Source of the DNA: Eledone cirrhosa
Lineage: Eukaryota
Length of the DNA stretch: 64,000 nt
Assembly (NCBI GenBank): GCA_964016885.1
Contig: OZ024751.1
Coordinates: 43,648,001-43,712,000 of the forward strand
Direction of reading: 5' to 3'
Positions within the stretch are counted from its first letter, which is position 1, and each line of letters opens with the position of its first letter. Below the pieces are notes generated by a model. The model had not been told where the DNA came from and ran no database searches. It saw only the letters and a program-made list of their open reading frames with translations. This document shows, piece by piece, positions 8,146-61,651 of the stretch. The position numbers were made by a program, and so were the translations under genes.

Positions 8146-8146
<1 letters not shown>

Positions 8147-8488
8147 CATCATCATCATCATTTCATTTTACGTCCACTTTTCCCTGCTTGCAAGGGTGGG
8201 ACGGGAACTGATTTTGGCTTGATTTCTACAGCTGGATGCCCTTCCTAACACCAACCTCATTTACAGTGAGTGCTGGGTGCTTTTTTGCTGTGGCACCTCC
8301 ACGACCACTTTGCAGTGGAATGATAGGGACCCCAGTTCTTATCATCTCATTTCTACAGCTGAGTAAACTGGAGCAATGTGAAATAAAGTGTCTTGCTCAA
8401 GGAAACAACACATCACCCGGTCTGTGAATTGAACTCACAATCTTTCGATTGCAAGGCCAATGCTCTAACCACTAAGCCATGTGTCTCC
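8146..8488 (-). mobile_element. tRNA-derived SINE (subfamily A), full length, inserted in (TA)n
   Basis: Same A/B boxes, central motif and (TGA)n tail as 3324-3657. TA runs on both sides. Confidence 0.92.
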
Positions 8489-18300: not shown

Positions 18301-21300
18301 ATGGCACTAGCACTACCACTTTACACAGTATATGAGGTGTATTTTGTCATGACACTAGCACTACCACTTTACACAGTATTTGAGGTGTATTTTGTGATGG
18401 CACCAGCACTACCACTTTACACAGTATATGAGGTGTATTTTGTCATGGCACCAGCACTACCACTTTACACAGTATATGAGGTGTATTTTGTCATGACACC
18501 AGCACTACCACTTTACACAGTATATGAAGTGTATTTTGTCATGACACTAGCACTACCACTTTACACAGTATATGAGGTGTATTTTGTCAAGACACTAGCA
18601 CTACCACTTTACACAGTATATGAGGTGTATTTTGTCATGGCACTAGCACTACCACTTTACACAGTATATGAGGTGTATTTTGTCATGGCACCAGCACTAC
18701 CACTTTACACAGTATATGAGGTGTATTTTGTCAAGACACTAGCACTACCACTTTACACAGTATATGAGGTGTATTTTGTCATGACACTAGCACTACCACT
18801 TTACACAGTATATGAAGTGTATTTTGTCATAACACTAGCACTACCACTTTACACAGTATATGAGGTGTATTTTGTCAAGACACTAGCACTACCACTTTAC
18901 ACAGTATATGAGGTGTATTTTGTCACTACACTAGCACTACCACTTTACACAGTATTTGAGGTGTATTTTGTCATGGCACCAGCACTACTACTTTACACAG
19001 TATATGAGGTGTATTTTGTCATGACACTAGCACCACCACTTTACACAGTATTTGAGGTGTATTTTGTCATGACACCAGCACTACCACTTTACACAGTATA
19101 TGAGGTGTATTTTGTCATGGCACCAGCACTACCACTTTACACAGTATATGAGGTGTATTTTGTCATGACACTAGCTCTACCACTTTACACAGTATATGAG
19201 GTGTATTTTGTCATGACACTAGCACTACCACTTTACACAGTATATGAGATGTATTTTGTCATGACACCAGCACTACCACTTTACACAGTATATGAGGTGT
19301 ATTTTGTCATGACACTAGCACTACCACTTTACGGAGTATATGAAGTGTATTTTGTCATGACACTAGCACTACCACTTTACACGGTATATGAGGTGTATTT
19401 TGTCATGACACCAGCACTACCACTTTACACAGTATATGAGGTGTATTTTGTCATGACACTAGCACTACCACTTTACACAGTATATGAGGTGTATTTTGTC
19501 ATGGCACCAGCACTACCACTTTACACAGTATATGAGGTGTATTTTGTCATGACACTAGCTCTACCACTTTACACAGTATATGAGGTGTATTTTGTCATGA
19601 CAATAGCACTACCACTTTACACAGTATATGAGGTGTATTTTGTCATGGCACCAGCACTACCACTTTACACAGTATATGAGGTGTATTTTGTCATGACACT
19701 AGCTCTACCACTTTACACAGTATATGAGATGTATTTTGTCATGACACCAGCACTACCACTTTACACAATATATGAGGTGTATTTTGTCATAACACTAGCA
19801 CTACCACTTTACGCAGTATATGAAGTGTATTTTGTCATGACACTAGCACTACCACTTTACACAGTATATGAGGTGTATTTTGTCATTACACTAGCACTAC
19901 CACTTTACACAGTATATGAGGTGTATTTTGTCATGACACTAGCACTACCACTTTACACAGTATTTGAGGTGTATTTTGTCATGGCACCAGCACTACCACT
20001 TTACACAGTATATGAGGTGTATTTTGTCATGACACCAGCACTACCACTTTACACAGTATATGAGGTGTATTTTGTCATGACACCAGCACTACCACTTTAC
20101 ACAGTATATGAGGTCTATTTTGTCATGGCACTAGCACTACCACTTTACACAGTATTTGAGGTGTATTTTGTCATGACACTAGCACTACCACTTTACGCAG
20201 TATATGAAGTGTATTTTTTCATGGCACCAGCACTACCACTTTACACAGTATTTGAGGTGTATTTTGTCATGACACTAGCACTACCACTTTACACAGTATA
20301 TGAGGTGTATTTTGTCATGACACTAGCACTACCACTTTACACAGTATTTGAGGTGTATTTTGTCATGGCACCAGCACTACCACTTTACACAGTATATGAG
20401 GTGTATTTTGTCATGGCACCAGCACTACCACTTTACACAGTATATGAGGTGTATTTTGTCATGACACTAGCACTAACCACTTTACACAGTATTTGAGGTG
20501 TATTTTGTCATGGCACCAGCACTACCACTTTACACATTATATGACGTGTATTTTGTCAAGACACTAGCACTACCACTTTACACAGTATATGAGGTGTATT
20601 ATGTCATGACACTAGCACTACCACTTTACACAGTATATGAAGTGTATTTTGTCATAACACTAGCACTACCACTTTACACAGTATATGAGGTGTATTTTGT
20701 CAAGACACTAGCACTACCACTTTACACAGTATATGAGGTGTATTTTGTCACTACACTAGCACTACCACTTTACACAGTATTTGAGGTGTATTTTGTCATG
20801 GCACCAGCACTACTACTTTACACAGTATATGAGGTGTATTTTGTCATGACACTAGCACCACCACTTTACACAGTATTTGAGGTGTATTTTGTCATGACAC
20901 CAGCACTACCACTTTACACAGTATATGAGGTGTATTTTGTCATGGCACCAGCACTACCACTTTACACAGTATATGAGGTGTATTTTGTCATGACACTAGC
21001 TCTACCACTTTACACAGTATATGAGGTGTATTTTGTCATGACACTAGCACTACCACTTTACACAGTATATGAGATGTATTTTGTCATGACACCAGCACTA
21101 CCACTTTACACAGTATATGAGGTGTATTTTGTCATGACACTAGCACTACCACTTTACGGAGTATATGAAGTGTATTTTGTCATGACACTAGCACTACCAC
21201 TTTACACGGTATATGAGGTGTATTTTGTCATGACACCAGCACTACCACTTTACACAGTATATGAGGTGTATTTTGTCATGACACTAGCACTACCACTTTA

Positions 21301-24300
21301 CACAGTATATGAGGTGTATTTTGTCATGACACTAGCACTACCACTTTACACAGTATATGAGGTGTATTTTGTCATGGCACCAGCACTACCACTTTACACA
21401 GTATATGAGGTGTATTTTGTCATGACACTAGCTCTACCACTTTACACAGTATATGAGATGTATTTTGTCATGACACCAGCACTACCACTTTACACAGTAT
21501 ATGAGGTGTATTTTGTCATAACACTAGCACTACCACTTTACGCAGTATATGAAGTGTATTTTGTCATGACACTAGCAGTACCACTTTACACAGTATATGA
21601 GGTGTATTTTGTCATGACACTAGCACTACCACTTTACACAGTATATGAGGTGTATTTTGTCATGACACTAGCACTACCACTTTACACAGTATATGAGATG
21701 TATTTTGTCATGACACCAGCACTACCACTTTACACAGTATATGAGGTGTATTTTGTCAAGACACTAGCACTACCACTTTACGCAGTATATGAAGTGTATT
21801 TTGTCATGACACTAGCACTACCACTTTACACAGTATATGAGGTGTATTTTGTCATGACACCAGCACTACCACTTTACACAGTATATGAGGTGTATTTTGT
21901 CATGACACTAGCACTACCACTTTACACAGTATATGAGGTGTATTTTGTCATGACACTAGCACTACCACTTTACACAGTATATGAGGTGTATTTTGTCATG
22001 ACACCAGCACTACCACTTTACACAGTATATGAGGTGTATTTTGTCATGACACTAGCACTACCACTTTACGCAGTATATGAAGTGTATTTTGTCATGACAC
22101 TAGCACTACCACTTTACACAGTATATGAGGTGTATTTTGTCATCACACTAGCACTACCACTTTACACAGTATATGAGGTGTATTTTGTCATGACACTAGC
22201 ACTACCACTTTACACAGTATATGAGATGTATTTTGTCATGACACCAGCACTACCACTTTACACAGCATATGAGGTGTATTATGTCAAGACACTAGCACTA
22301 CCACTTTACACAGTATATGAGGTGTATTTTGTCACTACACTAGCACTACCACTTTACACAGTATTTGAGGTGTATTTTGTCATGGCACCAGCACTACCAC
22401 TTTACACAGTATATGAGGTGTATTTTGTCATGACACTAGCACTACCACTTTACACAGTATATGAGGTGTATTTTGTCATGACACTAGCACTACCACTTTA
22501 CACAGTATATGAGGTGTATTTTGTCATGACACCAGCACTACCACTTTACACAGTATATGAGGTGTATTTTGTCAAGACACTAGCACTACCACTTTACACA
22601 GTATATGAAGTGTATTTTGTCATGACACTAGCACTACCACTTTACTCAGTATATGAGGTGTATTTTGTCATGGCACCAGCACTACCACTTTACACAGTAT
22701 ATGAGGTGTATTTTGTCATGACACCAGCACTACCACTTTACACAGTATATGAAGTGTATTTTGTCATGACACTAGCACTACCACTTTACACAGTATATGA
22801 GGTGTATTTTGTCATGACACTAGCACTACCACTTTACACAGTATATGAAGTGTATTTTGTCATGACACTAGCACTACCACTTTACACAGTATATGAGGTG
22901 TATTTTGTCATGACACTAGCACTACCACTTTACACAGTATATGAGGTGTATTTTGTAATGACACCAGCACTACCACTTTACACAGTATATGAGGTGTATT
23001 TTGTCATGGCACTAGCACTACCACTTTACACAGTATATGAAGTGTATTTTGTCATGACACTAGCACTACCACTTTACACAGTATATGAAGTGTATTTTGT
23101 CATGACACTAGCTCTACCACTTTACACAGTATATGAAGTGTATTTTGTCATGACACCAGCACTACCACTTTACACAGTACATGAGGTGTATTTTGTCATG
23201 ACACCAGCACTACCACTTTACACAGTATATGAAGTGTATTTTGTCATGACACTAGCTCTACCACTTTACACAGTATATGAAGTGTATTTTGTCATGACAC
23301 CAGCACTACCACTTTACACAGTATATGAGGTATATTTTGTCATGACACCAGCACTACCACTTTACACAGTATATAAGGTGTATTTTGTCATGACACTAGC
23401 TCTACCACTTTACACAGTATATGAGGTGTATTTTGTCATGACACTAGCACTACCACTTTACACAGTATATGAGGTGTATTTTGTCATGACACTAGCACTA
23501 CCACTTTACACAGTGTATGAGGTGTATTTTGTCATGACACTAGCACAACCACTTTACACAGTATGTGAGGTGTATTTTGTCATGGCACCAGCACTACCAC
23601 TTTACACAGTATATGAGGTGTATTTTGTCATGACACTAGCACAACCACTTTACACAGTATGTGAGGTGTATTTTGTCATGGCACCAGCACTACCACTTTA
23701 CACAGTATATGAGGTGTATTTTGTCATGACACTAGCACTACCACTTTACACAGTATATGAGGTGTATTTTGTCATGGCACCAGCACTACCACTTTACACA
23801 GTATATGAGGTGTATTTTGTCATGACACTAGCTCTACCACTTTACACAGTATATGAAGTGTATTTTGTCATGACACCAACACTACCACTTTACACAGTAT
23901 ATGAAGTGTATTTTGTCATGACACCAGCACTACCACTTTACACAGTATATGAGGTGTATTTTGTCATGACACTAGCTCTACCACTTTACACAGTATATGA
24001 AGTGTATTTTGTCATGACACCAGCACTACCACTTTACACAGTATATGAAGTGTATTTTGTCATGACACCAGCACTACCACTTTACACAGTATATGAGGTG
24101 TATTTTGTCATGACACTAGCTCTACCACTTTACACAGTATATGAGGTGTATTTTGTCATGACACTAGCACTACCACTTTACACAGTATATGAAGTGTATT
24201 TTGTCATGGCACCAGCACTACCACTTTACACAGTATATGAGGTGTATTTTGTCATGACACTAGCTCTACCACTGTACACAGTATATGAGGTGTATTTTGT

Positions 24301-27300
24301 CATGACACTAGCACTACCACTTTACACAGTATATGAAGTGTATTTTGTCATGACACCAGCACTACCACTTTACACAGTATATGAGGTGTATTTTGTCATG
24401 ACACTAGCTCTACCACTTTACACAGTATATGAGGTGTATTTTATCATGACACTAGCTCTACCACTTTACACAGTATATGAAGTGTATTTTGTCATGACAC
24501 CAGCACTACCACTTTACACAGTATATGAAGTGTATTTTGTCATGACACTAGCACTACCACTTTACACAGTATATGAGGTGTATTTTGTCATGACACTAGC
24601 ACTACCACTTTACACAGTATATGGAGTGTATTTTGTCATGACACCAGCACTACCACTTTACACAGTATATGAAGTGTATTTTGTCATGACACTAGCACTA
24701 CCACTTTACACAGTATATGAAGTGTATTTTGTCATGGCACTAGCACTACCACTTTACACAGTATATGAGGTGTATTTTGTCATGACACTAGCACTACCAC
24801 TTTACACAGTATATGAGGTGTATTTTGTCATGACACCAGCACTACCACTTTACACAGTATATGAGGTGTATTTTGTCATGGCACTAGCACTACCACTTTA
24901 CACAGTATATGAGGTGTATTTTCTCATGACACCAGCACTACCACTTTACACAGTATATGAGGTGTATTTTGTCATGACACTAGCACTACCACTTTACACA
25001 GTATATGAAGTGTATTTTGTCATGACACCAGCACTACCACTTTACACAGTATATGAGGTGTATTTTGTCATGGCACTAGCACTACCACTTTACACAGTAT
25101 ATGAAGTGTATTTTGTCATGACACCAGCTCTACCACTTTACACAGTATATGAGGTGTATTTTGTCATGACACTAACACTACCACTTTACACAGTATATGA
25201 GGTGTATTTTGTCATGACACCAGCACTACCACTTTACACAGTATATGAGGTGTATTTTGTCATGACACTAGCACTACCACTTTACACAGTATGTGAAGTG
25301 TATTTTGTCATGACACCAGCACTACCACTTTACACAGTATATGAGGTGTATTTTGTCATGGCACTAGCACTACCACTTTACACAGTATATGAAGTGTATT
25401 TTGTCATGACACCAGCACTACCACTTTACACAGTATATGAGGTGTATTTTGTCATGACACTAGCTCTACCACTTTACACAGTATATGAAGTATATTTTGT
25501 TATGACACCAGCACTACCACTTTACACAGTATATGAGGTGTATTTTGTCATGGCACCAGCACTACCACTTTACACAGTATATGAGGTGTATTTTGTCATG
25601 GCACTAGCACTACCACTTTACACAGTATATGAAGTGTATTTTGTCATGACACCAGCACTACCACTTTACACAGTATATGAGGTGTATTTTGTCATGACAC
25701 TAGCACTACCACTTTACACAGTATATGAAGTGTATTTTGTCATGGCACCAGCACTACCACTTTACACAGTATATGAGGTGTATTTTGTCATGACACTAGC
25801 TCTACCACTGTACACAGTATATGAGGTGTATTTTGTCATGACACTAGCACTACCACTTTACACAGTATATGAAGTGTATTTTGTCATGACACCAGCACTA
25901 CCACTTTACACAGTATATGAGGTGTATTTTGTCATGACACTAGCTCTACCACTTTACACAGTATATGAGGTGTATTTTATCATGACACTAGCTCTACCAC
26001 TTTACACAGTATATGAAGTGTATTTTGTCATGACACCAGCACTACCACTTTACACAGTATATGAAGTGTATTTTGTCATGACACTAGCACTACCACTTTA
26101 CACAGTATATGAGGTGTATTTTGTCATGACACTAGCACTACCACTTTACACAGTATATGGAGTGTATTTTGTCATGACACCAGCACTACCACTTTACACA
26201 GTATATGAGGTGTATTTTGTCATGACACTAGCTCTACCACTTTACACAGTATATGAAGTGTATTTTGTCATGACACCAGCACTACCACTTTACACAGTAT
26301 ATGAGGTGTATTTTGTCATGACACTAGCTCTACCACTTTACACAGTATATGAGGTGTATTTTGTCATGACACTAGCACTACCACTTTACACAGTATATGA
26401 AGTGTATTTTGTCATGGCACCAGCACTACCACTTTACACAGTATATGAGGTGTATTTTGTCATGACACTAGCTCTACCACTGTACACAGTATATGAGGTG
26501 TATTTTGTCATGACACTAGCACTACCACTTTACACAGTATATGAAGTGTATTTTGTCATGACACCAGCACTACCACTTTACACAGTATATGAGGTGTATT
26601 TTGTCATGACACTAGCTCTACCACTTTACACAGTATATGAGGTGTATTTTATCATGACACTAGCTCTACCACTTTACACAGTATATGAAGTGTATTTTGT
26701 CATGACACCAGCACTACCACTTTACACAGTATATGAAGTGTATTTTGTCATGACACTAGCACTACCACTTTACACAGTATATGAGGTGTATTTTGTCATG
26801 ACACTAGCACTACCACTTTACACAGTATATGAGGTGTATTTTGTCATGACACTAGCACTACCACTTTACGCAGTATATGAAGTGTATTTTGTCATGACAC
26901 TAGCACTACCACTTTACACAGTATATGAGGTGTATTTTGTCATCACACTAGCACTACCACTTTACACAGTATATGAGGTGTATTTTGTCATGACACTAGC
27001 ACTACCACTTTACACAGTATATGAGATGTATTTTGTCATGACACCAGCACTACCACTTTACACAGCATATGAGGTGTATTATGTCAAGACACTAGCACTA
27101 CCACTTTACACAGTATATGAGGTGTATTTTGTCACTACACTAGCACTACCACTTTACACAGTATTTGAGGTGTATTTTGTCATGGCACCAGCACTACCAC
27201 TTTACACAGTATATGAGGTGTATTTTGTCATGACACTAGCACTACCACTTTACACAGTATATGAGGTGTATTTTGTCATGACACTAGCACTACCACTTTA

Positions 27301-30300
27301 CACAGTATATGAGGTGTATTTTGTCATGACACCAGCACTACCACTTTACACAGTATATGAGGTGTATTTTGTCAAGACACTAGCACTACCACTTTACACA
27401 GTATATGAAGTGTATTTTGTCATGACACTAGCACTACCACTTTACTCAGTATATGAGGTGTATTTTGTCATGGCACCAGCACTACCACTTTACACAGTAT
27501 ATGAGGTGTATTTTGTCATGACACCAGCACTACCACTTTACACAGTATATGAAGTGTATTTTGTCATGACACTAGCACTACCACTTTACACAGTATATGA
27601 GGTGTATTTTGTCATGACACTAGCACTACCACTTTACACAGTATATGAAGTGTATTTTGTCATGACACTAGCACTACCACTTTACACAGTATATGAGGTG
27701 TATTTTGTCATGACACTAGCACTACCACTTTACACAGTATATGAGGTGTATTTTGTAATGACACCAGCACTACCACTTTACACAGTATATGAGGTGTATT
27801 TTGTCATGGCACTAGCACTACCACTTTACACAGTATATGAAGTGTATTTTGTCATGACACTAGCACTACCACTTTACACAGTATATGAAGTGTATTTTGT
27901 CATGACACTAGCTCTACCACTTTACACAGTATATGAAGTGTATTTTGTCATGACACCAGCACTACCACTTTACACAGTACATGAGGTGTATTTTGTCATG
28001 GCACCAGCACTACCACTTTACACAGTATATGAGGTGTATTTTGTCATGACACTAGCTCTACCACTTTACACAGTATATGAGATGTATTTTGTCATGACAC
28101 CAGCACTACCACTTTACACAGTATATGAGGTGTATTTTGTCATAACACTAGCACTACCACTTTACGCAGTATATGAAGTGTATTTTGTCATGACACTAGC
28201 AGTACCACTTTACACAGTATATGAGGTGTATTTTGTCATGACACTAGCACTACCACTTTACACAGTATATGAGGTGTATTTTGTCATGACACTAGCACTA
28301 CCACTTTACACAGTATATGAGATGTATTTTGTCATGACACCAGCACTACCACTTTACACAGTATATGAGGTGTATTTTGTCAAGACACTAGCACTACCAC
28401 TTTACGCAGTATATGAAGTGTATTTTGTCATGACACTAGCACTACCACTTTACACAGTATATGAGGTGTATTTTGTCATGACACCAGCACTACCACTTTA
28501 CACAGTATATGAGGTGTATTTTGTCATGACACTAGCACTACCACTTTACACAGTATATGAGGTGTATTTTGTCATGACACTAGCACTACCACTTTACACA
28601 GTATATGAGGTGTATTTTGTCATGACACCAGCACTACCACTTTACACAGTATATGAGGTGTATTTTGTCATGACACTAGCACTACCACTTTACGCAGTAT
28701 ATGAAGTGTATTTTGTCATGACACTAGCACTACCACTTTACACAGTATATGAGGTGTATTTTGTCATCACACTAGCACTACCACTTTACACAGTATATGA
28801 GGTGTATTTTGTCATGACACTAGCACTACCACTTTACACAGTATATGAGATGTATTTTGTCATGACACCAGCACTACCACTTTACACAGCATATGAGGTG
28901 TATTATGTCAAGACACTAGCACTACCACTTTACACAGTATATGAGGTGTATTTTGTCACTACACTAGCACTACCACTTTACACAGTATTTGAGGTGTATT
29001 TTGTCATGGCACCAGCACTACCACTTTACACAGTATATGAGGTGTATTTTGTCATGACACTAGCACTACCACTTTACACAGTATATGAGGTGTATTTTGT
29101 CATGACACTAGCACTACCACTTTACACAGTATATGAGGTGTATTTTGTCATGACACCAGCACTACCACTTTACACAGTATATGAGGTGTATTTTGTCAAG
29201 ACACTAGCACTACCACTTTACACAGTATATGAAGTGTATTTTGTCATGACACTAGCACTACCACTTTACTCAGTATATGAGGTGTATTTTGTCATGGCAC
29301 CAGCACTACCACTTTACACAGTATATGAGGTGTATTTTGTCATGACACCAGCACTACCACTTTACACAGTATATGAAGTGTATTTTGTCATGACACTAGC
29401 ACTACCACTTTACACAGTATATGAGGTGTATTTTGTCATGACACTAGCACTACCACTTTACACAGTATATGAAGTGTATTTTGTCATGACACTAGCACTA
29501 CCACTTTACACAGTATATGAGGTGTATTTTGTCATGACACTAGCACTACCACTTTACACAGTATATGAGGTGTATTTTGTAATGACACCAGCACTACCAC
29601 TTTACACAGTATATGAGGTGTATTTTGTCATGGCACTAGCACTACCACTTTACACAGTATATGAAGTGTATTTTGTCATGACACTAGCACTACCACTTTA
29701 CACAGTATATGAAGTGTATTTTGTCATGACACTAGCTCTACCACTTTACACAGTATATGAAGTGTATTTTGTCATGACACCAGCACTACCACTTTACACA
29801 GTACATGAGGTGTATTTTGTCATGACACCAGCACTACCACTTTACACAGTATATGAAGTGTATTTTGTCATGACACTAGCTCTACCACTTTACACAGTAT
29901 ATGAAGTGTATTTTGTCATGACACCAGCACTACCACTTTACACAGTATATGAGGTATATTTTGTCATGACACCAGCACTACCACTTTACACAGTATATAA
30001 GGTGTATTTTGTCATGACACTAGCTCTACCACTTTACACAGTATATGAGGTGTATTTTGTCATGACACTAGCACTACCACTTTACACAGTATATGAGGTG
30101 TATTTTGTCATGACACTAGCACTACCACTTTACACAGTGTATGAGGTGTATTTTGTCATGACACTAGCACAACCACTTTACACAGTATGTGAGGTGTATT
30201 TTGTCATGGCACCAGCACTACCACTTTACACAGTATATGAGGTGTATTTTGTCATGACACTAGCACAACCACTTTACACAGTATGTGAGGTGTATTTTGT

Positions 30301-33300
30301 CATGGCACCAGCACTACCACTTTACACAGTATATGAGGTGTATTTTGTCATGACACTAGCACTACCACTTTACACAGTATATGAGGTGTATTTTGTCATG
30401 GCACCAGCACTACCACTTTACACAGTATATGAGGTGTATTTTGTCATGACACTAGCTCTACCACTTTACACAGTATATGAAGTGTATTTTGTCATGACAC
30501 CAACACTACCACTTTACACAGTATATGAAGTGTATTTTGTCATGACACCAGCACTACCACTTTACACAGTATATGAGGTGTATTTTGTCATGACACTAGC
30601 TCTACCACTTTACACAGTATATGAAGTGTATTTTGTCATGACACCAGCACTACCACTTTACACAGTATATGAAGTGTATTTTGTCATGACACCAGCACTA
30701 CCACTTTACACAGTATATGAGGTGTATTTTGTCATGACACTAGCTCTACCACTTTACACAGTATATGAGGTGTATTTTGTCATGACACTAGCACTACCAC
30801 TTTACACAGTATATGAAGTGTATTTTGTCATGGCACCAGCACTACCACTTTACACAGTATATGAGGTGTATTTTGTCATGACACTAGCTCTACCACTGTA
30901 CACAGTATATGAGGTGTATTTTGTCATGACACTAGCACTACCACTTTACACAGTATATGAAGTGTATTTTGTCATGACACCAGCACTACCACTTTACACA
31001 GTATATGAGGTGTATTTTGTCATGACACTAGCTCTACCACTTTACACAGTATATGAGGTGTATTTTATCATGACACTAGCTCTACCACTTTACACAGTAT
31101 ATGAAGTGTATTTTGTCATGACACCAGCACTACCACTTTACACAGTATATGAAGTGTATTTTGTCATGACACTAGCACTACCACTTTACACAGTATATGA
31201 GGTGTATTTTGTCATGACACTAGCACTACCACTTTACACAGTATATGGAGTGTATTTTGTCATGACACCAGCACTACCACTTTACACAGTATATGAAGTG
31301 TATTTTGTCATGACACTAGCACTACCACTTTACACAGTATATGAAGTGTATTTTGTCATGGCACTAGCACTACCACTTTACACAGTATATGAGGTGTATT
31401 TTGTCATGACACTAGCACTACCACTTTACACAGTATATGAGGTGTATTTTGTCATGACACCAGCACTACCACTTTACACAGTATATGAGGTGTATTTTGT
31501 CATGGCACTAGCACTACCACTTTACACAGTATATGAGGTGTATTTTCTCATGACACCAGCACTACCACTTTACACAGTATATGAGGTGTATTTTGTCATG
31601 ACACTAGCACTACCACTTTACACAGTATATGAAGTGTATTTTGTCATGACACCAGCACTACCACTTTACACAGTATATGAGGTGTATTTTGTCATGGCAC
31701 TAGCACTACCACTTTACACAGTATATGAAGTGTATTTTGTCATGACACCAGCTCTACCACTTTACACAGTATATGAGGTGTATTTTGTCATGACACTAAC
31801 ACTACCACTTTACACAGTATATGAGGTGTATTTTGTCATGACACCAGCACTACCACTTTACACAGTATATGAGGTGTATTTTGTCATGACACTAGCACTA
31901 CCACTTTACACAGTATGTGAAGTGTATTTTGTCATGACACCAGCACTACCACTTTACACAGTATATGAGGTGTATTTTGTCATGGCACTAGCACTACCAC
32001 TTTACACAGTATATGAAGTGTATTTTGTCATGACACCAGCACTACCACTTTACACAGTATATGAGGTGTATTTTGTCATGACACTAGCTCTACCACTTTA
32101 CACAGTATATGAAGTATATTTTGTTATGACACCAGCACTACCACTTTACACAGTATATGAGGTGTATTTTGTCATGGCACCAGCACTACCACTTTACACA
32201 GTATATGAGGTGTATTTTGTCATGGCACTAGCACTACCACTTTACACAGTATATGAAGTGTATTTTGTCATGACACCAGCACTACCACTTTACACAGTAT
32301 ATGAGGTGTATTTTGTCATGACACTAGCACTACCACTTTACACAGTATATGAAGTGTATTTTGTCATGGCACCAGCACTACCACTTTACACAGTATATGA
32401 GGTGTATTTTGTCATGACACTAGCTCTACCACTGTACACAGTATATGAGGTGTATTTTGTCATGACACTAGCACTACCACTTTACACAGTATATGAAGTG
32501 TATTTTGTCATGACACCAGCACTACCACTTTACACAGTATATGAGGTGTATTTTGTCATGACACTAGCTCTACCACTTTACACAGTATATGAGGTGTATT
32601 TTATCATGACACTAGCTCTACCACTTTACACAGTATATGAAGTGTATTTTGTCATGACACCAGCACTACCACTTTACACAGTATATGAAGTGTATTTTGT
32701 CATGACACTAGCACTACCACTTTACACAGTATATGAGGTGTATTTTGTCATGACACTAGCACTACCACTTTACACAGTATATGGAGTGTATTTTGTCATG
32801 ACACCAGCACTACCACTTTACACAGTATATGAGGTGTATTTTGTCATGACACTAGCTCTACCACTTTACACAGTATATGAAGTGTATTTTGTCATGACAC
32901 CAGCACTACCACTTTACACAGTATATGAGGTGTATTTTGTCATGGCACCAGCACTACCACTTTACACAGTATATGAGGTGTATTTTGTCATGGCACTAGC
33001 ACTACCACTTTACACAGTATATGAAGTGTATTTTGTCATGACACCAGCACTACCACTTTACACAGTATTGAGGTGTATTTTGTCATGACACTAGCACTAC
33101 CACTTTACACAGTATATGAAGTGTATTTTGTCATGGCACCAGCACTACCACTTTACACAGTATATGAGGTGTATTTTGTCATGACACTAGCTCTACCACT
33201 GTACACAGTATATGAGGTGTATTTTGTCATGACACTAGCACTACGACTTTACACAGTATATGAAGTGTATTTTGTCATGACACCAGCACTACCACTTTAC

Positions 33301-36300
33301 ACAGTATATGAGGTGTATTTTGTCATGACACTAGCTCTACCACTTTACACAGTATATGAGGTGTATTTTATCATGACACTAGCTCTACCACTTTACACAG
33401 TATATGAAGTGTATTTTGTCATGACACCAGCACTACCACTTTACACAGTATATGAAGTGTATTTTGTCATGACACTAGCACTACCACTTTACACAGTATA
33501 TGAGGTGTATTTTGTCATGACACTAGCACTACCACTTTACACAGTATATGGAGTGTATTTTGTCATGACACCAGCACTACCACTTTACACAGTATATGAA
33601 GTGTATTTTGTCATGACACTAGCACTACCACTTTACACAGTATATGAAGTGTATTTTGTCATGGCACTAGCACTACCACTTTACACAGTATATGAGGTGT
33701 ATTTTGTCATGACACTAGCACTACCACTTTACACAGTATATGAGGTGTATTTTGTCATGACACCAGCACTACCACTTTACACAGTATATGAGGTGTATTT
33801 TGTCATGGCACTAGCACTACCACTTTACACAGTATATGAGGTGTATTTTCTCATGACACCAGCACTACCACTTTACACAGTATATGAGGTGTATTTTGTC
33901 ATGACACTAGCACTACCACTTTACACAGTATATGAAGTGTATTTTGTCATGACACCAGCACTACCACTTTACACAGTATATGAGGTGTATTTTGTCATGG
34001 CACTAGCACTACCACTTTACACAGTATATGAAGTGTATTTTGTCATGACACCAGCACTACCACTTTACACAGTATATGAGGTGTATTTTGTCATGGCACT
34101 AGCACTACCACTTTACACAGTATATGAAGTGTATTTTGTCATGACACCAGCTCTACCACTTTACACAGTATATGAGGTGTATTTTGTCATGACACTAGCA
34201 CTACCACTTTACACAGTATATGAGGTGTATTTTGTCATGACACCAGCACTACCACTTTACACAGTATATGAGGTGTATTTTGTCATGACACCAGCACTAC
34301 CACTTTACACAGTATATGAGGTGTATTTTGTCATGACACTAGCACTACCACTTTACACAGTATGTGAAGTGTATTTTGTCATGACACCAGCACTACCACT
34401 TTACACAGTATATGAGGTGTATTTTGTCATGGCACTAGCACTACCACTTTACACAGTATATGAAGTGTATTTTGTCATGACACCAGCACTACCACTTTAC
34501 ACAGTATATGAGGTGTATTTTGTCATGACACTAGCTCTACCACTTTACACAGTATATGAAGTGTATTTTGTCATGACACCAGCACTACCACTTTACACAG
34601 TATATGAGGTGTATTTTGTCATGGCACCAGCACTACCACTTTACACAGTATATGAGGTGTATTTTGTCATGACACTAGCACTACCACTTTACACAGTATA
34701 TGAGGTGTATTTTGTCATGACACCAGCACTACCACTTTACACAGTATATGAGGTGTATTTTGTCATGGCACTAGCACTACCACTTTACACAGTATATGAA
34801 GTGTATTTTGTCATGACACCAGCACTACCACTTTACACAGTATATGAGGTGTATTTTGTCATGGCACTAGCACTACCACTTTACACAGTATATGAAGTGT
34901 ATTTTGTCATGACACCAGCACTACCACTTTACACAGTATATGAGGTGTATTTTGTCATGACACCAGCACTACCACTTTACACAGTATATGAGGTGTATTT
35001 TGTCATGACACTAGCACTACCACTTTACACAGTATATGAAGTGTATTTTGTCATGACACTAGCACTACCACTTTACACAGTATATGAAGTGTATTTTGTC
35101 ATGACACTAGCACTACCACTTTACACAGTATATGAAGTGTATTTTGTCATGACACCAGCACTACCACTTTACACAGTATATGAGGTGTATTTTGTCATGA
35201 CACCAGCACTACCACTTTACACAGTATATGAGGTGTATTTTGTCATGGCACTAGCACTACCACTTTACACAGTATATGAAGTGTATTTTGTCATGACACC
35301 AGCACTACCACTTTACACAGTATATGAGGTGTATTTTGTCATGACACCAGCACTACCACTTTACACAGTATATGAGGTGTATTTTGTCATGACACCAGCA
35401 CTACCACTTTACACAGTATATGAGGTGTATTTTGTCATGACACCAGCTCTACCACTTTACACAGTATATGAGGTGTATTTTGTCATGACACTAGCACTAC
35501 CACTTTACACAGTATATGAGGTGTATTTTGTCATGACACCAGCACTACCACTTTACACAGTATATGAGGTGTATTTTGTCATGACACCAGCACTAACACT
35601 TTACACAGTATATGAGGTGTATTTTGTCATGACACTAGCACTACCACTTTACACAGTATATGAGGTGTATTTTGTCATGACACTAGCACTACCACTTTAC
35701 ACAGTATATGAAGTGTATTATGTCATGACACCAGCACTACCACTTTACACAGTATATGAGGTGTATTTTGTCATGACACTAGCACTACCACTTTACACAG
35801 TATATGAAGTGTATTATGTCATGACACCAGCACTACCACTTTACACAGTATATGAGGTGTATTTTGTCATGGCACTAGCACTACCACTTTACATAGTATA
35901 TGAAGTGTATTTTGTCATGACACCAGCACTACCACTTTACACAGTATATGAGGTGTATTTTGTCATGACAACAGCACTACCACTTTACACAGTATATGAG
36001 GTGTATTTTGTCATGACACCAGCTCTACCACTTTACACAGTATATGAGATGTATTTTGTCATGACACTAGCACTACCACTTTACACAGTATATGAGGTGT
36101 ATTTTGTCATGACACTAGCACTACCACTTTACACAGTATATGAGGTGTATTTTGTCATGACACCAGCACTACCACTTTACACAGTATATGAGGTGTATTT
36201 TGTCATGACACTTGCACTACCACTTTACACAGTATATGAAGTGTATTTTGTCATGACACCAGCACTACCACTTTACACAGTATATGAGGTGTATTTTGTC

Positions 36301-39300
36301 ATGACACCAGCACTACCACTTTACACAGTATATGAGGTGTATTTTGTCATGACACCAGCTCTACCACTTTACACAGTATATGAGGTGTATTTTGTCATGA
36401 CACTAGCACTACCACTTTACACAGTATATGAGGTGTATTTTGTCATGACACCAGCACTACCACTTTACACAGTATATGAGGTGTATTTTGTCATGACACC
36501 AGCACTACCACTTTACACAGTATATGAGGTGTATTTTGTCATGACACTAGCACTACCACTTTACACAGTATATGAGGTGTATTTTGTCATGACACTAGCA
36601 CTACCACTTTACACAGTATATGAAGTGTATTATGTCATGACACCAGCACTACCACTTTACACAGTATATGAGGTGTATTTTGTCATGACACTAGCACTAC
36701 CACTTTACACAGTATATGAAGTGTATTATGTCATGACACCAGCACTACCACTTTACACAGTATATGAGGTGTATTTTGTCATGGCACTAGCACTACCACT
36801 TTACACAGTATATGAAGTGTATTTTGTCATGACACCAGCACTACCACTTTACACAGTATATGAGGTGTATTTTGTCATGACAACAGCACTACCACTTTAC
36901 ACAGTATATGAGGTGTATTTTGTCATGACACCAGCTCTACCACTTTACACAGTATATGAGATGTATTTTGTCATGACACTAGCACTACCACTTTACACAG
37001 TATATGAGGTGTATTTTGTCATGACACTAGCACTACCACTTTACACAGTATATGAGGTGTATTTTGTCATGACACCAGCACTACCACTTTACACAGTATA
37101 TGAGGTGTATTTTGTCATGACACTTGCACTACCACTTTACACAGTATATGAAGTGTATTTTGTCATGACACCAGCACTACCACTTTACACAGTATATGAG
37201 GTGTATTTTGTCATGACACCAGCACTACCACTTTACACAGTATATGAGGTGTATTTTGTCATGGCACTAGCACTACCACTTTACACAGTATATGAAGTGT
37301 ATTTTGTCATGACACCAGCACTACCACTTTACACAGTATATGAAGTGTATTTTGTCATGGCACTAGCACTACCACTTTACACAGTATATGAAGTGTATTT
37401 TGTCATGACACCAGCACTACCACTTTACACAGTATATGAGGTGTATTTTGTCATGACACCAGCACTACCACTTTACACAGTATATGAGGTGTATTTTGTC
37501 ATGACACCAGCTCTACCACTTTACACAGTATATGAAGTGTATTTTGTCATGACACTAGCACTACCACTTTACACAGTATGTGAGGTGTATTTGTCATGAC
37601 ACCAGCACTACCACTTTACACAGTATATGAAGTGTATTTTGTCATGACACTAGCACTACCACTTTACACAGTATTTGAGGTGTATTTTGTCATGACACCA
37701 GCACTACCACTTTACACAGTATATGAGGTGTATTTTGTCATGACACTAGCTCTACCACTTTACACAGTATATGAGGTGTATTTTATCATGACACCAGCTC
37801 TACCACTTTACACAGTATATGAAGTGTATTTTGTCATGACACTAGCACTACCACTTTACACAGTATTTGAGGTGTATTTTGTCATGACACCAGCACTACC
37901 ACTTTACACAGTATGTGAGGTGTATTTGTCATGACACCATCACTACCACTTTACACAGTATATGAAGTGTATTTTGTCATGACACTAGCACTACCACTTT
38001 ACACAGTATATGAGGTGTATTTTGTCATGACACCAGTACTACCACTTTACACAGTATATGAGGTGTATTTTGTCATGACACTAGCTCTACCACTTTACAC
38101 AGTATATGAGGTGTATTTTGTCATGACACTAGCTCTACCACTTTACACAGTATATGAAGTGTATTTTGTCATGACACTAGCTCTACCACTTTACACAGTA
38201 TATGAGGTGTATTTTGTCATGACACCAGCACTACCACTTTACACAGTATATGAAGTGTATTTTGTCATGACACTAGCTCTACCACTTTACACAGTATATG
38301 AGGTGTATTTTGTCATGACACCAGCACTACCACTTTACACAGTATATGAAGTGTATTTTGTCATGACACTAGCACTACCACTTTACACAGTATTTGAGGT
38401 GTATTTTGTCATGACACCAGCACTACCACTTTACACAGTATGTGAGGTGTATTTTGTCATGACACTAGCTCTACCACTTTACACAGTATATGAAGTGTAT
38501 TTTGTCATGACACTAGCACTACCACTTTACACAGTATATGAGGTGTATTTTGTCATGACACCAGCACTACCACTTTACACAGTATATGAGGTGTATTTTG
38601 TCATGACACTAGCTCTACCACTTTACACAGTATATGAAGTGTATTTTGTCATGACACCAGCACTACCACTTTACACAGTATATTAGGTGTATTTTGTCAT
38701 GAAACTAGCTCTACCACTTTACACAGTATATGAAGTGTATTTTGTCATGACACCAGCTCTACCACTTTACACAGTATTTGAGGTGTATTTTGTCATGACA
38801 CTAGCACTACCACTTTACACAGTATATTAGGTGTATTTTGTCATGACACCAGCTCTACCACTTTACACAGTATATGAGGTGTATTTTGTCATGACACTAG
38901 CACTACCACTTTACACAGTATATGAGGTGTATTTTGTTATGACACCAGCTCTACCACTTTACACAGTATATGAGGTGTATTTTGTCATGACACCAGCTCT
39001 ACCACTTTACACAGTATATGAGGTGTATTTTGTCATGACACTAGCACTACCACTTTACACAGTATATGAGGTGTATTTTGTCATGACACTAGCACTACCA
39101 CTTTACACAGTATATGAGGTGTATTTTGTCATGACACCAGCACTACCACTTTACACAGTATGTGAGGTGTATTTGTCATGACACCAGCACTACCACTTTA
39201 CACAGTATATGAAGTGTATTTTGTCATGACACTAGCACTACCACTTTACACAGTATATGAGGTGTATTTTGTCATGACACCAGCACTACCACTTTACACA

Positions 39301-41345
39301 GTATATGAGGTGTATTTTGTCATGACACTAGCTCTACCACTTTACACAGTATATGAGGTGTATTTTGTCATGGCACCAGCACTACCACTTTACACAGTAT
39401 TTGAGGTGTATTTTGTCATGGCACTAGCACTACCACTTTACACAGTATATGAGGTGTATTTTGTCATGGCACTAGCACTACCACTTTACACAGTATATGA
39501 GGTGTATTTTGTCATGGCACTAGCACTACCACTTTACACAGTATATGAGGTGTATGTTGTCATGACACCAGCACTACCACTTTACACAGTATATGAAGTG
39601 TATTTTGTCATGGCACCAGCACTACCACTTTACACAGTATATGAGGTGTATTTTGTCATGACACCAGCACTACCACTTTACACAGTATATGAGGTGTATT
39701 TTGTCATGACACTAGCTCTACCACTTTACACAGTATATGAGGTGTATTTTGTCATGGCACCAGCACTACCACTTTACACAGTATTTGAGGTGTATTTTGT
39801 CATGGCACTAGCACTACCACTTTACACAGTATATGAGGTGTATTTTGTCATGGCACTAGCACTACCACTTTACACAGTATATGAGGTGTATTTTGTCATG
39901 GCACTAGCACTACCACTTTACACAGTATATGAGGTGTATGTTGTCATGACACCAGCACTACCACTTTACACAGTATATGAAGTGTATTTTGTCATGGCAC
40001 CAGCACTACCACTTTACACAGTATATGAGGTGTATTTTGTCATGACACCAGCACTACCACTTTACACAGTATATGAGGTGTATTTTGTCATGACACTAGC
40101 ACTACCACTTTACACAGTATATGAAGTGTATGTTGTCATGGCACTAGCACTACCACTTTACACAGTATTTGAGGTGTATTTTGTCATGACACTAGCACTA
40201 CCACTTTACACAGTATTTGAGGTGTATTTTGTCATGACACTAGCACTACCACTTTACACAGTATTTGAGGTGTATTTGTCATGGCACTAGCACTACCACT
40301 TTACACAGTATATGAGGTGTATTTTGTCATGACACCAGCACTACCACTTTACACAGTATATGAGGTGTATTTTGTCATGGCACTAGCACTACCACTTTAC
40401 ACAGTATATGAGGTGTATTTTGTCATGGCACTAGCACTACCACTTTACACAGTATTTGAGGTGTATTTTGTCATGACACTAGCACTACCACTTTACACAG
40501 TATTTGAGGTGTATTTTGTCATGACACTAGCACTACCAATTTACACAGTATTTGAGGTGTATTTGTCATGGCACTAGCACTACCACTTTACACAGTATAT
40601 GAAGTGTATTTTGTCATGGCACCAGCACTACCACTTTACACAGTATTTGAGGTGTATTTTGTCATGGCACTAGCACTACCACTTTACACAGTATATGAGG
40701 TGTATTTTGTCATGACACTAGCACTACCACTTTACACAGTATATGAGGTGTATTTTGTCATGACACTAGCACTACCACTTTACACAGTATATGAGGTGTA
40801 TTTTGTCATGACACTAGCACTACCACTTTACACAGTATATGAGGTGTATTTTGTCATGGCACTAGCACTACCACTTTACACAGTATATGAGGTGTATTTT
40901 GTCATGACACTAGCACTACCACTTTACACAGTATATGAAGTGTATTTTGTCATGGCACTAGCACTACCACTTTACACAGTATATGAGGTGTATTTTGTCA
41001 TGGCACTAGCACTACCACTTTACACAGTATATGAGGTGTATTTTGTCATGGCACTAGCACTACCACTTTACACAGTATATGAAGTGTATTTTGTCATGGC
41101 ACTAGCACTACCACTTTACACAGTATATGAGGTGTATTTTGTCATGGCACTAGCACTACCACTTTACACAGTATATGAAGTGTATTTTGTCATGGCACTA
41201 GCACTACCACTTTACACAGTATATGAAGTGTATTTTGTCATGGCACTAGCACTATCACTTTACAGAATGTACTTGGTACAAATTATTGTGACACCAGCAC
41301 TATCACTTTATAGAGTATAAGTACATTTTATTATTGTACCAGCAT
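15362..41345. repeat. ~26-kb tandem array of a 48-bp unit (~540 copies), SINE-module derived
   Basis: Consensus GTGTATTTTGTCATG(A/G)CAC(T/C)AGCACTACCACTTTACACAGTATATGA(G/A). Degenerate terminal units at both edges. Rare 42-, 47- and 49-bp variants. Confidence 0.99.
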
Positions 41346-43563: not shown

Positions 43564-43641
43564 TTGTGTCAAAGACGTACCAACCTCCCTAGTGCTGGTG
43601 CCATGATAAAATGCACTCAGTAAAGTGACGAGTAGGACCCC

Positions 43642-45104: not shown

Positions 45105-45278
45105 TCAGTAACAGAGAAGACCCGCCTTACCTAAATATATAGTAAAACCTACTCCAGCCAGTAGGCATCTCTAACAAAATACACCCCGTCCCACCACCCC
45201 CACCCCCACCCGATCCACACCACCCCGTTCTATGTAAAGTTATGTTGGTGCCGCGCCTTCGAGGCCGAAACAAATGAG

Positions 45279-45539
45279 ATCGTGTAGGTGTCACGACAAA
45301 AAAACACACAGTCCACGCTGTAATGTGGCCGTGTAGGCAACACGGTAAAAACCTCCCAGACCCACACTGTAAATGTGGTTGGTGTTAGGAAGGGCATCCA
45401 ACTGTAGAAAACCTGCCAGACAGTCCTATGCGAGCAAGACAATCACTCTTGCCTCAAGTGGGACTACCCCCGTCCAAACCCATGCAAGCGTGGAACACGG
45501 ACGTTAAACGTTGATGATGATGATGATGATGATGATGAT
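45279..45539 (+). mobile_element. SINE 3' part (subfamily C) with two copies of the ~48-bp module
   Basis: cgtgtagg...cacgctgtaatgtggc / cgtgtagg...cacactgtaaatgtgg, then ggtgttaggaagggcatcc and (TGA)n tail. Confidence 0.88.
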
Positions 45540-46058: not shown

Positions 46059-46303
46059 ATCGTGTAGGTGTCACGACAAAAAAACACACAGTCCACGCTG
46101 TAATGTGGCCGTGTAGGCAACACGGTAAAAACCTCCCAGACCCACACTGTAAATGTGGTTGGTGTTAGGAAGGGCATCCAACTGTAGAAAACCTGCCAGA
46201 CAGTCCTATGCGAGCAAGACAATCACTCTTGCCTCAAGTGGGACTACCCCCGTCCAAACCCATGCAAGCGTGGAACACGGACGTTAAACGTTGATGATGA
46301 TGA
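46059..46303 (+). mobile_element. SINE 3' part (subfamily C), identical copy of 45279-45523
   Basis: Base-for-base match at 780-bp offset. Embedded in (TA)n. Confidence 0.9.
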
Positions 46304-46682: not shown

Positions 46683-47050
46683 GAGGCACATGGCATAGTG
46701 GTTAGAGCATTGGCCTTGCAATCAAAAGGTTGTGAGTTCAATTCTCAGACCGGCTGATGTGTTGTTTCCTTGAGCAAGACACTTTATTTCACATTACTCC
46801 AGTTTACTCAGCTGTAGAAATGAGATGATAGGACTGGGGTCCCTATCATTCCACTGCAAAGGTGCCACGGCAAAAAAGCACCCAGCCCACACTGTAAAGT
46901 GGACGTGTAGGGGTCACAGAAAAAAAAGCACCCAGCACTCACTGTAAATGAGATTGGTGTTAGAAAGGGCATCCAGCTGTAGAAATCAAGCCAGAATCAG
47001 TTCCCGTCCCACCCTTGCAAGCAGGGAAAAGCGGACGTAAAAATGATGAT
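46683..47050 (+). mobile_element. tRNA-derived SINE (subfamily A), full length, with duplicated internal module
   Basis: A box tggcatagtgg, B box gttcaattc. aaaaaagcacccagc.c.cactgtaaa occurs twice (46872, 46922). (TGA)n tail. Confidence 0.92.
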
Positions 47051-49380: not shown

Positions 49381-49389
49381 ATACATTTC

Positions 49390-49548
49390 CACACTTTACT
49401 GAGTGCATTTTATCATGGCACCAGCACTAGGGAGGTTGGTACGACTTTGACACAACTGAAGAATCCTCCCAATCTTTTATTTGACAGGTTTTCTATGACT
49501 GGATGCTCTTCCTAACAGCAACCAAGTTAATGAGTGTACTGGGTACCA
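49390..49548 (-). mobile_element. SINE internal/tail fragments containing the 48-bp-type module
   Basis: cactttactgagtgcattttatcatggcaccagcacta, then ggatgctcttcctaacagcaacc. Confidence 0.65.
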
Positions 49549-54196: not shown

Positions 54197-55935
54197 ACAC
54201 TGGCGTTTTAGCCAGGGGCCACATACATATAGACATGCAGGCACACACACCTAAATATGCATATTCACCTATATACACAAGCACACTCACACACATACAA
54301 ATACACACACCTATATACACAAGCACACTCACACACATACAGGTACTCACACTTATGTACACATTCAACTACACACACCTATCTATACATGCAAGCTTAC
54401 ACACATACACATACAAATATGCATGCTCATATATATATATACAAGCACACTCACACAAATACAAATACACACATCTTTATACACATGCACACTCACACAT
54501 ACAACTACACCTTTATAGGCATACACACATACAAATACACATACTTATATCCACAAGCACACAGAAATTTACACAAACATATCCACAAGCACACACATTT
54601 AACCACCACCCCTCATATTGATGGTATAAATATGTCCTTATGATATACTACACCCCATACCCGCACCTAGCTTGAAAGATATTCTTTTGGGGGCTGCTTT
54701 CACCAGATTCCCTCCATTCACAATGACAGGGGTGAGTGAAGACATTCAAGGGGTGAGGAGAGGAGACCTCTGGTGTATAATTATGAGTTATGAGAAGTAT
54801 GAAGAGAACAAAGGCTGAGATTCTTTAGCTGTAGGAGATGGTAAGGAAATTACTAGAATTAGGGTCCTGGTAATAAAGGGGCAGCAACAGGGAGTTTGTG
54901 CCATGGCCAGGTCCTTATCAATATATAACAGGAAGACTAAAAGGAGACTTGGATGGAGGATGTTTGTTGGGATCAAGCCTGGCTTGGCTTGGCCCATGTG
55001 AGACCAGTGGACACAAACACATGGAGTGGGACACTAAGGAGTGCTGTCAGACAGGACCCAGCCCTACTTAGGGATTAATTGTGTCCTGCATAATTAAAAA
55101 AAAAAAGGATGATGATGATGAACAGGGAGGTTGTGATATGGCCAGGCCCATAGCAGTATGGTACATCATTAATATGTGGAGGGCTGATCTATCATCCCCC
55201 ACCATCTTTGAGGTTTGAAAGATGACAGGGCTATCTTCAATGTGCCTGTTGCATGTGCATGTGTTTCTGTGTGTGTCTGTGTCTCTGTGTGTGTGTGTGT
55301 GGGCACACACATGTATGTGTGTATGTTGTCTATTGAGATTCAGGTATCTTGTTTACACACACACACACTTGTTTAGGTTTTCATTGAAGACATGAATGAT
55401 ATATCTTTAAAGCTGTTAAAGGTGGGTGTATATACTAATGTATATAGTTACAAAGCTGTGTAGAAGGGTGTATATAGTAGTGTAAATAGTTACAAAGCTG
55501 GGTAGAGGGTGGGTATATATTATACTAGATGTATTACAAAGTTATGGTAAACTGGGTGTATATAGTATTAGATGTATTACAAGGCTATGGTAGACTGCAT
55601 ATATATATATAGCTCTGTATATATTTCCAAAGCCATTTCTTAGTTTACACAATTAACACAACCACAGTCTTCTATTAGCATTGGACTCTAATTTCACTAT
55701 TTCTGAAATCTCTAATTACTAAAAATTAATTTACTAATTAATTTTTTAATTTACTATAAATGCAGTCATTTTTTTTTTCTATGTAATCACAAAAAATATT
55801 TAATATAATTATCATTTTTTAAATAAAATTCTTCTTCTATTATAAATAAACAAACACAAATTATACAGGAAATAGTACTACTATGTACTATATATTTATT
55901 ATATAGAGTACCCCAGGATTTACAAATATATATAT

Positions 55936-56612
55936 ACTGTAAAGTGGTTATGTAGGTATCATAGCCAAAGGTACCCAGTCCACACTGTAAAGTGGTCATG
56001 TAGGTATCACAGCCAAAGGTACCCAGTCCACACTGTAAAGTGGTCATGTAGGTATCACAGCCAAAAGTACCCAGTCCACACTGTAAAGTGGTCATGTAGG
56101 TATCACAGCCAAAAGTACCCAGTCCACACTGTAAAGTGGTCATGTAGGTATCACAGCCAAAAGTACCCAGTCCACACTGTAAAGTGGTCATGTATGTATC
56201 ACAGCCAAAGGTACCCAGTCCACACTGTAAAGTGGTCATGTAGGTATCACAGCCAAAGGTACCCAGTCCACACTGTAAAGTGGTCATGTAGGTATCACGG
56301 CCAAAGGTACCCAGTCCACACTGTAAAGTGGTTATGTAGGTATCACAGCCAAAGGTACCCAGTCCACACTGTAAAGTGGTCATGTAGGTATCACAGCCAA
56401 AGGTACCCAGTCCACACTGTAAAGTGGTCATGTAGGTATCACAGCCAAAAGTACCCAGTCCACACTGTAAAGTGGTCATGCAGGTGTCACGGCCAAAAGT
56501 TCCCATCACTGACTGTAAATGAGGTTGGTGCTAGGGAGGGCATCCAGCTGTAGAAACCAAGCTAAAATCGGTTCTGCTAGCGTGGAAAATGGACATTAAA
56601 CAATGATGATGA
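55936..56612 (+). mobile_element. 5'-truncated SINE whose 48-bp internal module is expanded to 12 tandem copies
   Basis: Unit actgtaaagtggtcatgtaggtatcacagccaaaggtacccagtccac x12 (55936-56511) runs directly into actgtaaatgaggttggtgctagggagggcatccagctgtagaaa...(TGA)n. Confidence 0.92.
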
Positions 56613-60809: not shown

Positions 60810-61199
60810 GAAGGCGCATGGCTTAGTGGTTAGAGCATTGGGCTTGCAATCGGAAGGTTGTGAGTTCAATATTTATAGACCGGGTGATGTGTTGTTTCCT
60901 TGAGCAAGACACTTTATTTCACATTGCTCTAGTTTACTCAGTTGTAGAAATGAGATGATAGGACTGGGGTCCCTATCATTCCACTACAAAGTGGTCGTGG
61001 AGGTGCCACGGAAAAAAGCACCCAGCACTCACTGTAAATGAGGTTGGTGTTAGGAAGGCCATCCAACTGTAGAAATCAAGCCAGAATCAGTTCCTGTATA
61101 AGCAAGACAAGGTCATCCGACCGAACACTGCCCACAACAGAACAACCCGTCTAACCCATGCTAGCGTGGAAGAATGGACGTAAAACGGTGATGATAATG
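60810..61199 (+). mobile_element. tRNA-derived SINE (subfamily A) with alternative RTE-type tail
   Basis: ggcgcatggcttagtggttagagc, gttcaat, same body as 46683. Tail aacccatgctagcgtggaagaatggacgtaaaac(g)gtgatgat. Confidence 0.9.

Positions 61200-61651
<452 letters not shown>

What the first reader, a model, noticed from the sequence alone, without database searches (positions are those of the whole stretch)
55936..56612. Second, independent 48-bp expansion of the same SINE module (series 1 -> 2 -> 12 -> ~540 copies)
Seen: 12 units of exactly 48 bp continue seamlessly into a SINE tail. They share ggt.tca...c.aa...acc...tgtaaagtggt with the large array but differ at many positions and lie in the opposite orientation, so they are not a piece of it. 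SINEs at 3324, 8146 and 60810 carry one module; those at 46683, 45279 and 46059 carry two. Inference: the module is an intrinsically expansion-prone 'satellite seed' spread by retrotransposition.
Basis: partly seen in the sequence, partly recalled or inferred. Interest (0 to 1): 0.7.

Follow-up and report, generated by a model that had tools for sequence, protein, structure and literature searches.

The report
Minisatellite grown from a LINE tail
A 12-copy repeat of 48 letters sits in the tail of a small jumping element whose six sister copies carry only one to three units, so it likely grew where it lies; it is one of likely thousands of such arrays in this genome and a clean new example of a known way in which satellite DNA is born.

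Summary
The array is real: 11 near-identical 48-bp units, one terminal unit and a retroposon tail. It is not a piece of the 540-copy array: 28/48 identity, no shared units, separate clades. The module is not a SINE invention. It lies in the 3' UTR of a reverse-transcriptase LINE lineage and is shared by the tRNA SINEs. This array belongs to a seven-copy mosaic element; its six sisters hold 1, 1, 1, 2, 2 and 3 modules, and its unit variant occurs nowhere else in 3.0 Gb, so growth was likely local. In 1.38 Mb of preset samples, 5 of 102 module loci are 48/49-bp arrays of five or more units, about 6-9 times background, but 97 of 103 arrays come from other DNA. Against full independence: one unit variant is shared by many arrays (7,832 exact hits). 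The 540-copy array comes from a different, older module type. Known kind (SINE/LINE-derived satellites); this scan noted the same 48-bp family on other DNA (e1-9585604).

The parts
55863..55935 (+). 5' piece of the mosaic host element: one fragment of a 74-bp AT-rich repeat unit followed by (TA)n
   Evidence: same junction at 7 places in the genome, 90-96% identical to six sisters; repeat depth starts at 55863
55936..56463 (+). array B, 11 interior 48-bp units of a non-terminal LINE 3'-UTR module with three array-specific substitutions
56464..56511 (+). unit 12, terminal-type module
   Evidence: groups with terminal modules of sisters, LINEs and SINEs
56512..56612 (+). LINE-type 3' tail (older subfamily), about 64 bp deleted, ending in (ATG)n
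15395..41264 (-). array A, about 540 x 48 bp, different (A-type) module; private variant; no LINE tail at its end
3324..3659 (-). tRNA-headed SINE, one module (3431-3479), inserted in a 71-bp array
8146..8485 (-). tRNA-headed SINE, one module (8256-8304)
45110..45539 (+). 3' end of the young LINE subfamily, two fixed modules
46061..46303 (+). 5'-cut copy of the same LINE end, two modules, starts at (TA)n
46683..47049 (+). tRNA-headed SINE, two modules (46854-46952)
60810..61200 (+). tRNA-headed SINE, one module (60995-61042), bounded by a direct repeat of about 12 bp
43590..43637 (+). single partial A-type module in a fragment of an older element
49382..49429 (-). single partial A-type module in an older element; same upstream context as A-type arrays L021, L048, L097

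Best explanation
The 12-copy array lies in the LINE-derived tail of a small mosaic element whose six sister copies carry one to three modules, and it likely grew in place from a two-module copy by slippage or unequal exchange. Shown: the module sits in the 3' UTR of reverse-transcriptase LINEs as a short tandem of 2 (young subfamily) or 3-4 (older subfamily) units, and tRNA SINEs and mosaic elements carry the same end with 1-3 units. Inferred: LINE machinery scatters roughly 190,000 such seeds; the pre-existing tandem (or the ~12-bp direct repeat around a single module) lets strands misalign in a fixed 48-bp register; about 1 locus in 20 becomes an array and is homogenised locally, the terminal unit staying distinct. 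Array A arose the same way from a different, older module type. No function is implied.
For: Seven copies of B's 5' junction in 3.0 Gb (control 0) with 1, 1, 1, 2, 2, 3 and 12 modules and the same tail type. B's 30-mer variant: 8 hits, all in B; A's 32-mer: 377 hits, all in A. Tree of 136 units: A one clade (98/85), B's six interior variants one clade (99/92), on opposite sides of a 97/90 split; A+B as one clade rejected, p-AU 0.036. LINE origin: RVT_1 + PHD ORF directly upstream of the modules in the young (L157, L161, L295) and RVT_1 in the older subfamily (L297). 24 of B's 29 closest tail relatives are of the older LINE type, 5 are tRNA SINEs; 24 of 29 hold 1-4 modules, 5 hold 11 or more. 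In the random sample L127 has 23 units matching the second module of its own intact LINE end, L102 has alternating units, L084 A-type units. 22 of 31 arrays compared have only or nearly only private units (21 wholly private, L127 21 of 23).
Against: B's interior unit is 3 changes from the widely shared unit but 6 from a sister's first module, and the tree puts a shared-family variant next to B (99/84, one column); descent from the sisters' modules is not rejected (p-AU 0.18) but not shown. Sisters are only 86-96% alike, so the copy number at insertion is not observed. Enrichment rests on 5 arrays. 48 columns resolve few forks (31 of 122 branches starred). No target-site duplication was identified.
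Confidence: 0.72

Rival explanations
1. B's interior units were imported: an existing array of the widely shared subfamily recombined (gene conversion or template switching) into the homologous module of the resident element, then mutated and was homogenised locally.
For: One 33-mer unit variant has 7,832 exact hits on many contigs; all 28 pairs among 8 such arrays share identical units; the 96-unit array on C27 starts with the two own modules of a young LINE end (29 siblings 97-99% alike, none with more than 2 modules), then switches to the shared unit, which differs from both; a derived variant occurs in 4 arrays on C25, C27, C1132 and in 0 of 137 dispersed modules and 0 of 54 sibling loci. 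B is 3 changes from that unit.
Against: B shares no unit with any of 30 other arrays; its terminal unit shares two central changes with the interior units, and unit 8 is intermediate; the shared unit is close to a CpG-decayed form of the older LINE module (inference), so closeness may be ancestry. The 8 arrays were found with B as query, a biased set.
Confidence: 0.18
2. B is a 5'-truncated retrocopy or segmental copy of a longer, pre-formed array, not an expansion in place.
For: B begins abruptly at (TA)n with no SINE head; long arrays followed by the LINE tail exist.
Against: The same 5' junction is present in six sisters with 1-3 modules; B's variant has no donor elsewhere in the assembly.
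Confidence: 0.04
3. The module is not special: arrays arise anywhere in this repeat-rich genome and the module is merely abundant.
For: 103 arrays (period 15 or more, 4 or more copies) in 1.38 Mb, only 6 module-derived; sister copies of B's own element expanded other parts (about 17-bp array in L197, about 21-bp array in L200); no unusual single-strand fold (z 0.92, 0.78, -0.04, 0.38, -1.14).
Against: 5 arrays from 102 loci against 0.54-0.83 expected (Poisson P 0.0002-0.002), and 0 from 18.2 kb of SINE head and tail sequence against 1.5 expected.
Confidence: 0.25

Closest known systems
SINE-derived satellites (sSat1-3) of squamates, Vassetzky et al. 2023, PMC10702118 (abstract, background, passages of results, whole discussion read)
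   Same: Tandem arrays of part of a retroposon with the parent's end still attached at one side, distinct terminal monomers, a few to hundreds of units, alternating variants, many loci, longer arrays more uniform, bias to chromosome ends.
   Different: Units there are about 70-290 nt and come from SINEs; here 48 bp from a LINE 3' UTR that is already tandem in the master and is shared by LINEs, SINEs and mosaic elements; matched sister copies are available here.
Satellites from short tandem arrays inside Ogre LTR retrotransposons, Vondrak et al. 2020, PMC7004042 (abstract only); Macas et al. 2009 on 3' UTR repeats (title seen in a reference list)
   Same: A short tandem array carried by a dispersed retroelement occasionally expands into a long array.
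   Different: Plant LTR elements and pericentromeric growth there; non-LTR element here, and the shared subfamily leans to chromosome ends.
Alu/B1/MaLR-derived minisatellites and the Haber-Louis short-direct-repeat model, as reviewed in PMC6947457 and PMC3389668 (passages read)
   Same: First duplication between short direct repeats flanking the unit, later growth by slippage, conversion or unequal crossing-over; hotspots within an element, and tandems pre-existing in the master (LTR12).
   Different: Much larger arrays (to 26 kb) and an estimated thousands of loci from one module.
RTE-clade LINEs with partner tRNA/CORE SINEs (octopus OR1 named as CORE-SINE in PMC4824008, passages read; RTE label recalled from the protein's look, not tested by a tree)
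   Same: SINE and LINE share the 3' end; simple-repeat terminus.
   Different: Whether these SINEs are OR1 or the LINE is a described family was not testable (no repeat library).

Membership tests
Retroposon-derived satellite (sSat-like) | Repeat unit homologous to part of a dispersed retroposon | tested here: met
Retroposon-derived satellite (sSat-like) | At least four middle monomers, with a terminal unit continuing into the parent's end | tested here: met
   11 interior units, terminal unit and tail
Retroposon-derived satellite (sSat-like) | Many loci, independent origins | tested here: met
   1776 and 1647 first-look candidates; 21 of 31 arrays wholly private; one subfamily shared
Retroposon-derived satellite (sSat-like) | Bias to chromosome ends | tested here: inconclusive
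   shared variant: 19 of 27 loci listed on C1-C7 lie in the outer 5% at either end (counted by hand from the first 100 listed hits, module density not controlled); B itself lies at 43.7 of 53.9 Mb
SINE-derived (strict) | Parent of array B is a tRNA-headed SINE | tested here: not met
   no head upstream; tail of the older LINE type; host is a mosaic element
LINE 3'-UTR origin | Module lies downstream of a reverse-transcriptase ORF | tested here: met
   PF00078 E 4e-32 (L161), 2e-24 (L297); modules follow the ORF end
RTE clade | AP endonuclease + RT in one ORF and placement in the RTE clade on an RT tree | not tested
   copies fetched were 5'-cut; only RVT_1 and PHD seen; clade name recalled
tRNA-derived SINE (3324, 8146, 46683, 60810) | tRNA-related head | tested here: inconclusive
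   Rfam tRNA at 60819-60876, 22.8 bits, E 0.029, below the gathering score of 29; ARAGORN none
CORE-SINE (OR1) | CORE central domain | not testable with these tools
   no SINE library; resemblance recalled only

The most novel reading that the evidence does not exclude
The LINE 3'-UTR module acts both as a seed and as a landing pad: besides thousands of private expansions, one satellite subfamily colonises new sites by recombining into freshly inserted LINE tails, so that retrotransposition and ectopic recombination together spread a satellite, and matched sister copies let birth, growth and transfer rates of satellites be measured directly in one genome.
Probability: 0.3. Interest if true: 0.6.

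Novelty: new member of a known kind. Interest (0 to 1): 0.33.

Why it matters
The process is known, but the system is unusually well controlled: an estimated 190,000 seeds, several thousand arrays, datable LINE subfamilies and sister copies with 1-3 units next to expanded ones. It could put numbers on the first steps of satellite birth and test whether arrays jump between homologous retrocopies. It explains part of the tandem-repeat load of what is likely an octopus genome (organism inferred from recalled repeat features and earlier notes, not from a call).

Tried and rejected
B as a piece of A: rejected. B as a truncated copy of a longer array: no donor, six short sisters. Hairpin-driven instability: no fold beyond shuffles in 5 of 5 strands tested. 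tRNA gene scan: none. The profile was trained on array units only and missed the young LINE's second module in 14 of 62 'single' loci, so counts were corrected to 48 single and 42 double. The script stopped at L195; L195 and L196 were read. Two planned samples on C16 did not exist. Whether B's interior unit descends from the sisters' modules or from the shared subfamily was not resolved. Literature searches listed no paper on this 48-bp family by title or abstract; subscription papers (Ohshima and Okada 1994, Jurka and Gentles 2006, Macas 2009), repeat libraries and the later parts and supplements of PMC13282606 (part 1 of 3 read) were not seen and may hold it. A look-up of earlier findings by sequence gave nothing.

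Full report
Observation. The window holds 12 units of exactly 48 bp at 55936-56511 that continue into a retroposon tail ending in (ATG)n at 56612. Eleven units differ by 0-3 letters; unit 12 is a different, terminal-type module. The large array A (15395-41264, minus strand) has the same period (530 of 541 spacings). Modal units of A and B match at 28 of 48 places without gaps, above all 5000 shuffles (mean 20.0, max 26), and no A unit is closer than 16 changes to a B unit.

What the module is. The window is C11:43,648,001-43,712,000 of a 3.0-Gb genome. The elements at 45279 and 46059 are not tRNA SINEs: their 5' part is the end of a LINE. Searching with the piece upstream of one array gave 30 loci, 29 of them siblings 97-99% alike, with open frames of up to about 500 aa that hit RVT_1 (E 4e-32) and PHD. 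In these siblings the profile counted 2 modules in 15, 1 in 13 (a second is visible by eye in most) and 0 in 1; none had more than 2. An older subfamily, about 60% alike in protein over 282 aa, has 3-4 modules after its RT frame. The tRNA-headed SINEs carry the same end with one or two modules; the single module is bounded by a direct repeat of about 12 bp. So the seed is a LINE 3'-UTR tandem that SINEs share. The label RTE is recalled, not tested.

B's own family. Of the 29 closest relatives of B's last unit plus tail (87-90%), 24 are of the older LINE type and 5 are tRNA SINEs; 24 hold 1-4 modules and 5 hold 11 or more. One had the same 5' junction as B. A pattern for that junction has 7 hits in the genome, control 0: module numbers 1, 1, 1, 2, 2, 3 and 12. 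They are copies of a mosaic non-coding element; in two sisters other parts have expanded instead (about 17-bp and 21-bp arrays). B's unit variant has 8 exact hits, all in B. B's interior units are of the non-terminal type and unit 12 of the terminal type, so the parent likely had two modules and the first was amplified (inference).

Array A. Its variant has 377 exact hits, all in A. It groups with another module type (97/90 split) found in arrays on many contigs, five of which (L024, L025, L039, L048, L050) end in a decayed LINE-type tail, and as single partial copies at 43590 and 49382 in an older element. A itself ends in a different sequence. A and B as one clade is rejected (p-AU 0.036). 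The series 1-2-12-540 therefore mixes lineages, but each step is a real state of homologous modules.

Genome-wide frequency. 138 preset 10-kb stretches (1.38 Mb) gave 222 modules (0 in reversed sequence) at 102 loci: 62 single, 28 double, 6 with 3-4, 2 with 5-9 (one of them a 111-bp unit), 4 with 10 or more; 14 singles have a missed neighbour. Five loci are 48/49-bp arrays of 6-23 units, none on the four largest chromosomes (0 in 53 stretches). Scaled by chromosome class: about 190,000 loci and about 7,000 arrays, uncertain by a factor of 2-3. But the genome is full of arrays: 103 in the sample, 6 from the module. Against that background the module gave 5 where 0.54-0.83 were expected (P 0.0002-0.002); 18.2 kb of SINE head and tail gave 0 where 1.5 were expected. 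Element age is not controlled. No strand folds better than shuffles, so the likely cause is the ready-made tandem, as in the short-direct-repeat model (PMC6947457, PMC3389668, passages).

Results against full independence. Of 31 arrays compared, 21 have only private units, but 8 arrays on C8, C25, C27 and C1132 share identical units in all 28 pairs (found with B as query, so a biased set) and intermix in the tree. Their unit has 7,832 exact hits; of 27 loci listed on C1-C7, 19 lie in the outer 5% of a chromosome (hand count). The 96-unit array on C27 begins with the two own modules of a young LINE end and then switches to this shared unit, and a derived variant occurs in 4 of these arrays but in 0 of 137 dispersed modules and 0 of 54 sibling loci. 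This suggests transfer of arrays into homologous LINE tails (inference); ancestry from a CpG-decayed older module is the alternative. B is 3 changes from this unit, and the data do not decide between the two sources.

Comparison. It works like the squamate SINE-derived satellites (PMC10702118) and the Ogre-derived satellites of legumes (PMC7004042, abstract). It meets the tests for a retroposon-derived satellite and fails the strict one of descent from a tRNA SINE. Nine paper searches listed no description of this family; repeat libraries and subscription papers were not available. The scan had noted a 30-kb array of a 48-bp unit with the same reading on another piece of this genome.

Verdict. 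Real, well explained, a new member of a known kind; its value lies in the matched sisters and the hint of array transfer. Interest 0.33.

Noticed in passing
L052, L087, L125, L127 (random sample): Tandem units of 111-112 bp made of the young LINE's second module plus the start of the tail, recurring at four loci; a second register set by another short direct repeat.
   Followed up: partly
L296 (C27:16.857-16.862 Mb): 96-unit array inside a young LINE end whose units are not the LINE's own modules; candidate for array transfer by recombination.
   Followed up: partly
window 61230-61296 and about 45655-45760: Long near-perfect palindromes with almost no loop, flanked by TA-rich sequence; MITE-like or fold-back insertions.
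   Followed up: no
window 43660-43745, 45820-45840, 46061, 56810-56850: Many retroposon fragments begin or end exactly at (TA)n runs, and 46061-46303 is nearly identical to the 3' part of the 45279 copy 780 bp away; suggests (TA)n-mediated copying or deletion.
   Followed up: no
window 3149-6322: The 71-bp array is interrupted by the SINE at 3324-3659, in register on both sides.
   Followed up: no
L197, L199, L200, L204, L205, L213; C12:19.03 Mb, C13, C15: A mosaic non-coding element (short-repeat region, antisense SINE piece, CA-rich minisatellite, 74-bp unit, LINE tail); its 74-bp unit forms long arrays elsewhere (167 pattern hits).
   Followed up: partly
L126 276-1000 and upstream of L009: An 80-bp array that looks derived from the coding end of the same LINE, so coding parts expand too (by eye).
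   Followed up: no
L157, L161, L295: The LINE carries a PHD finger downstream of the RT domain within the same frame.
   Followed up: partly
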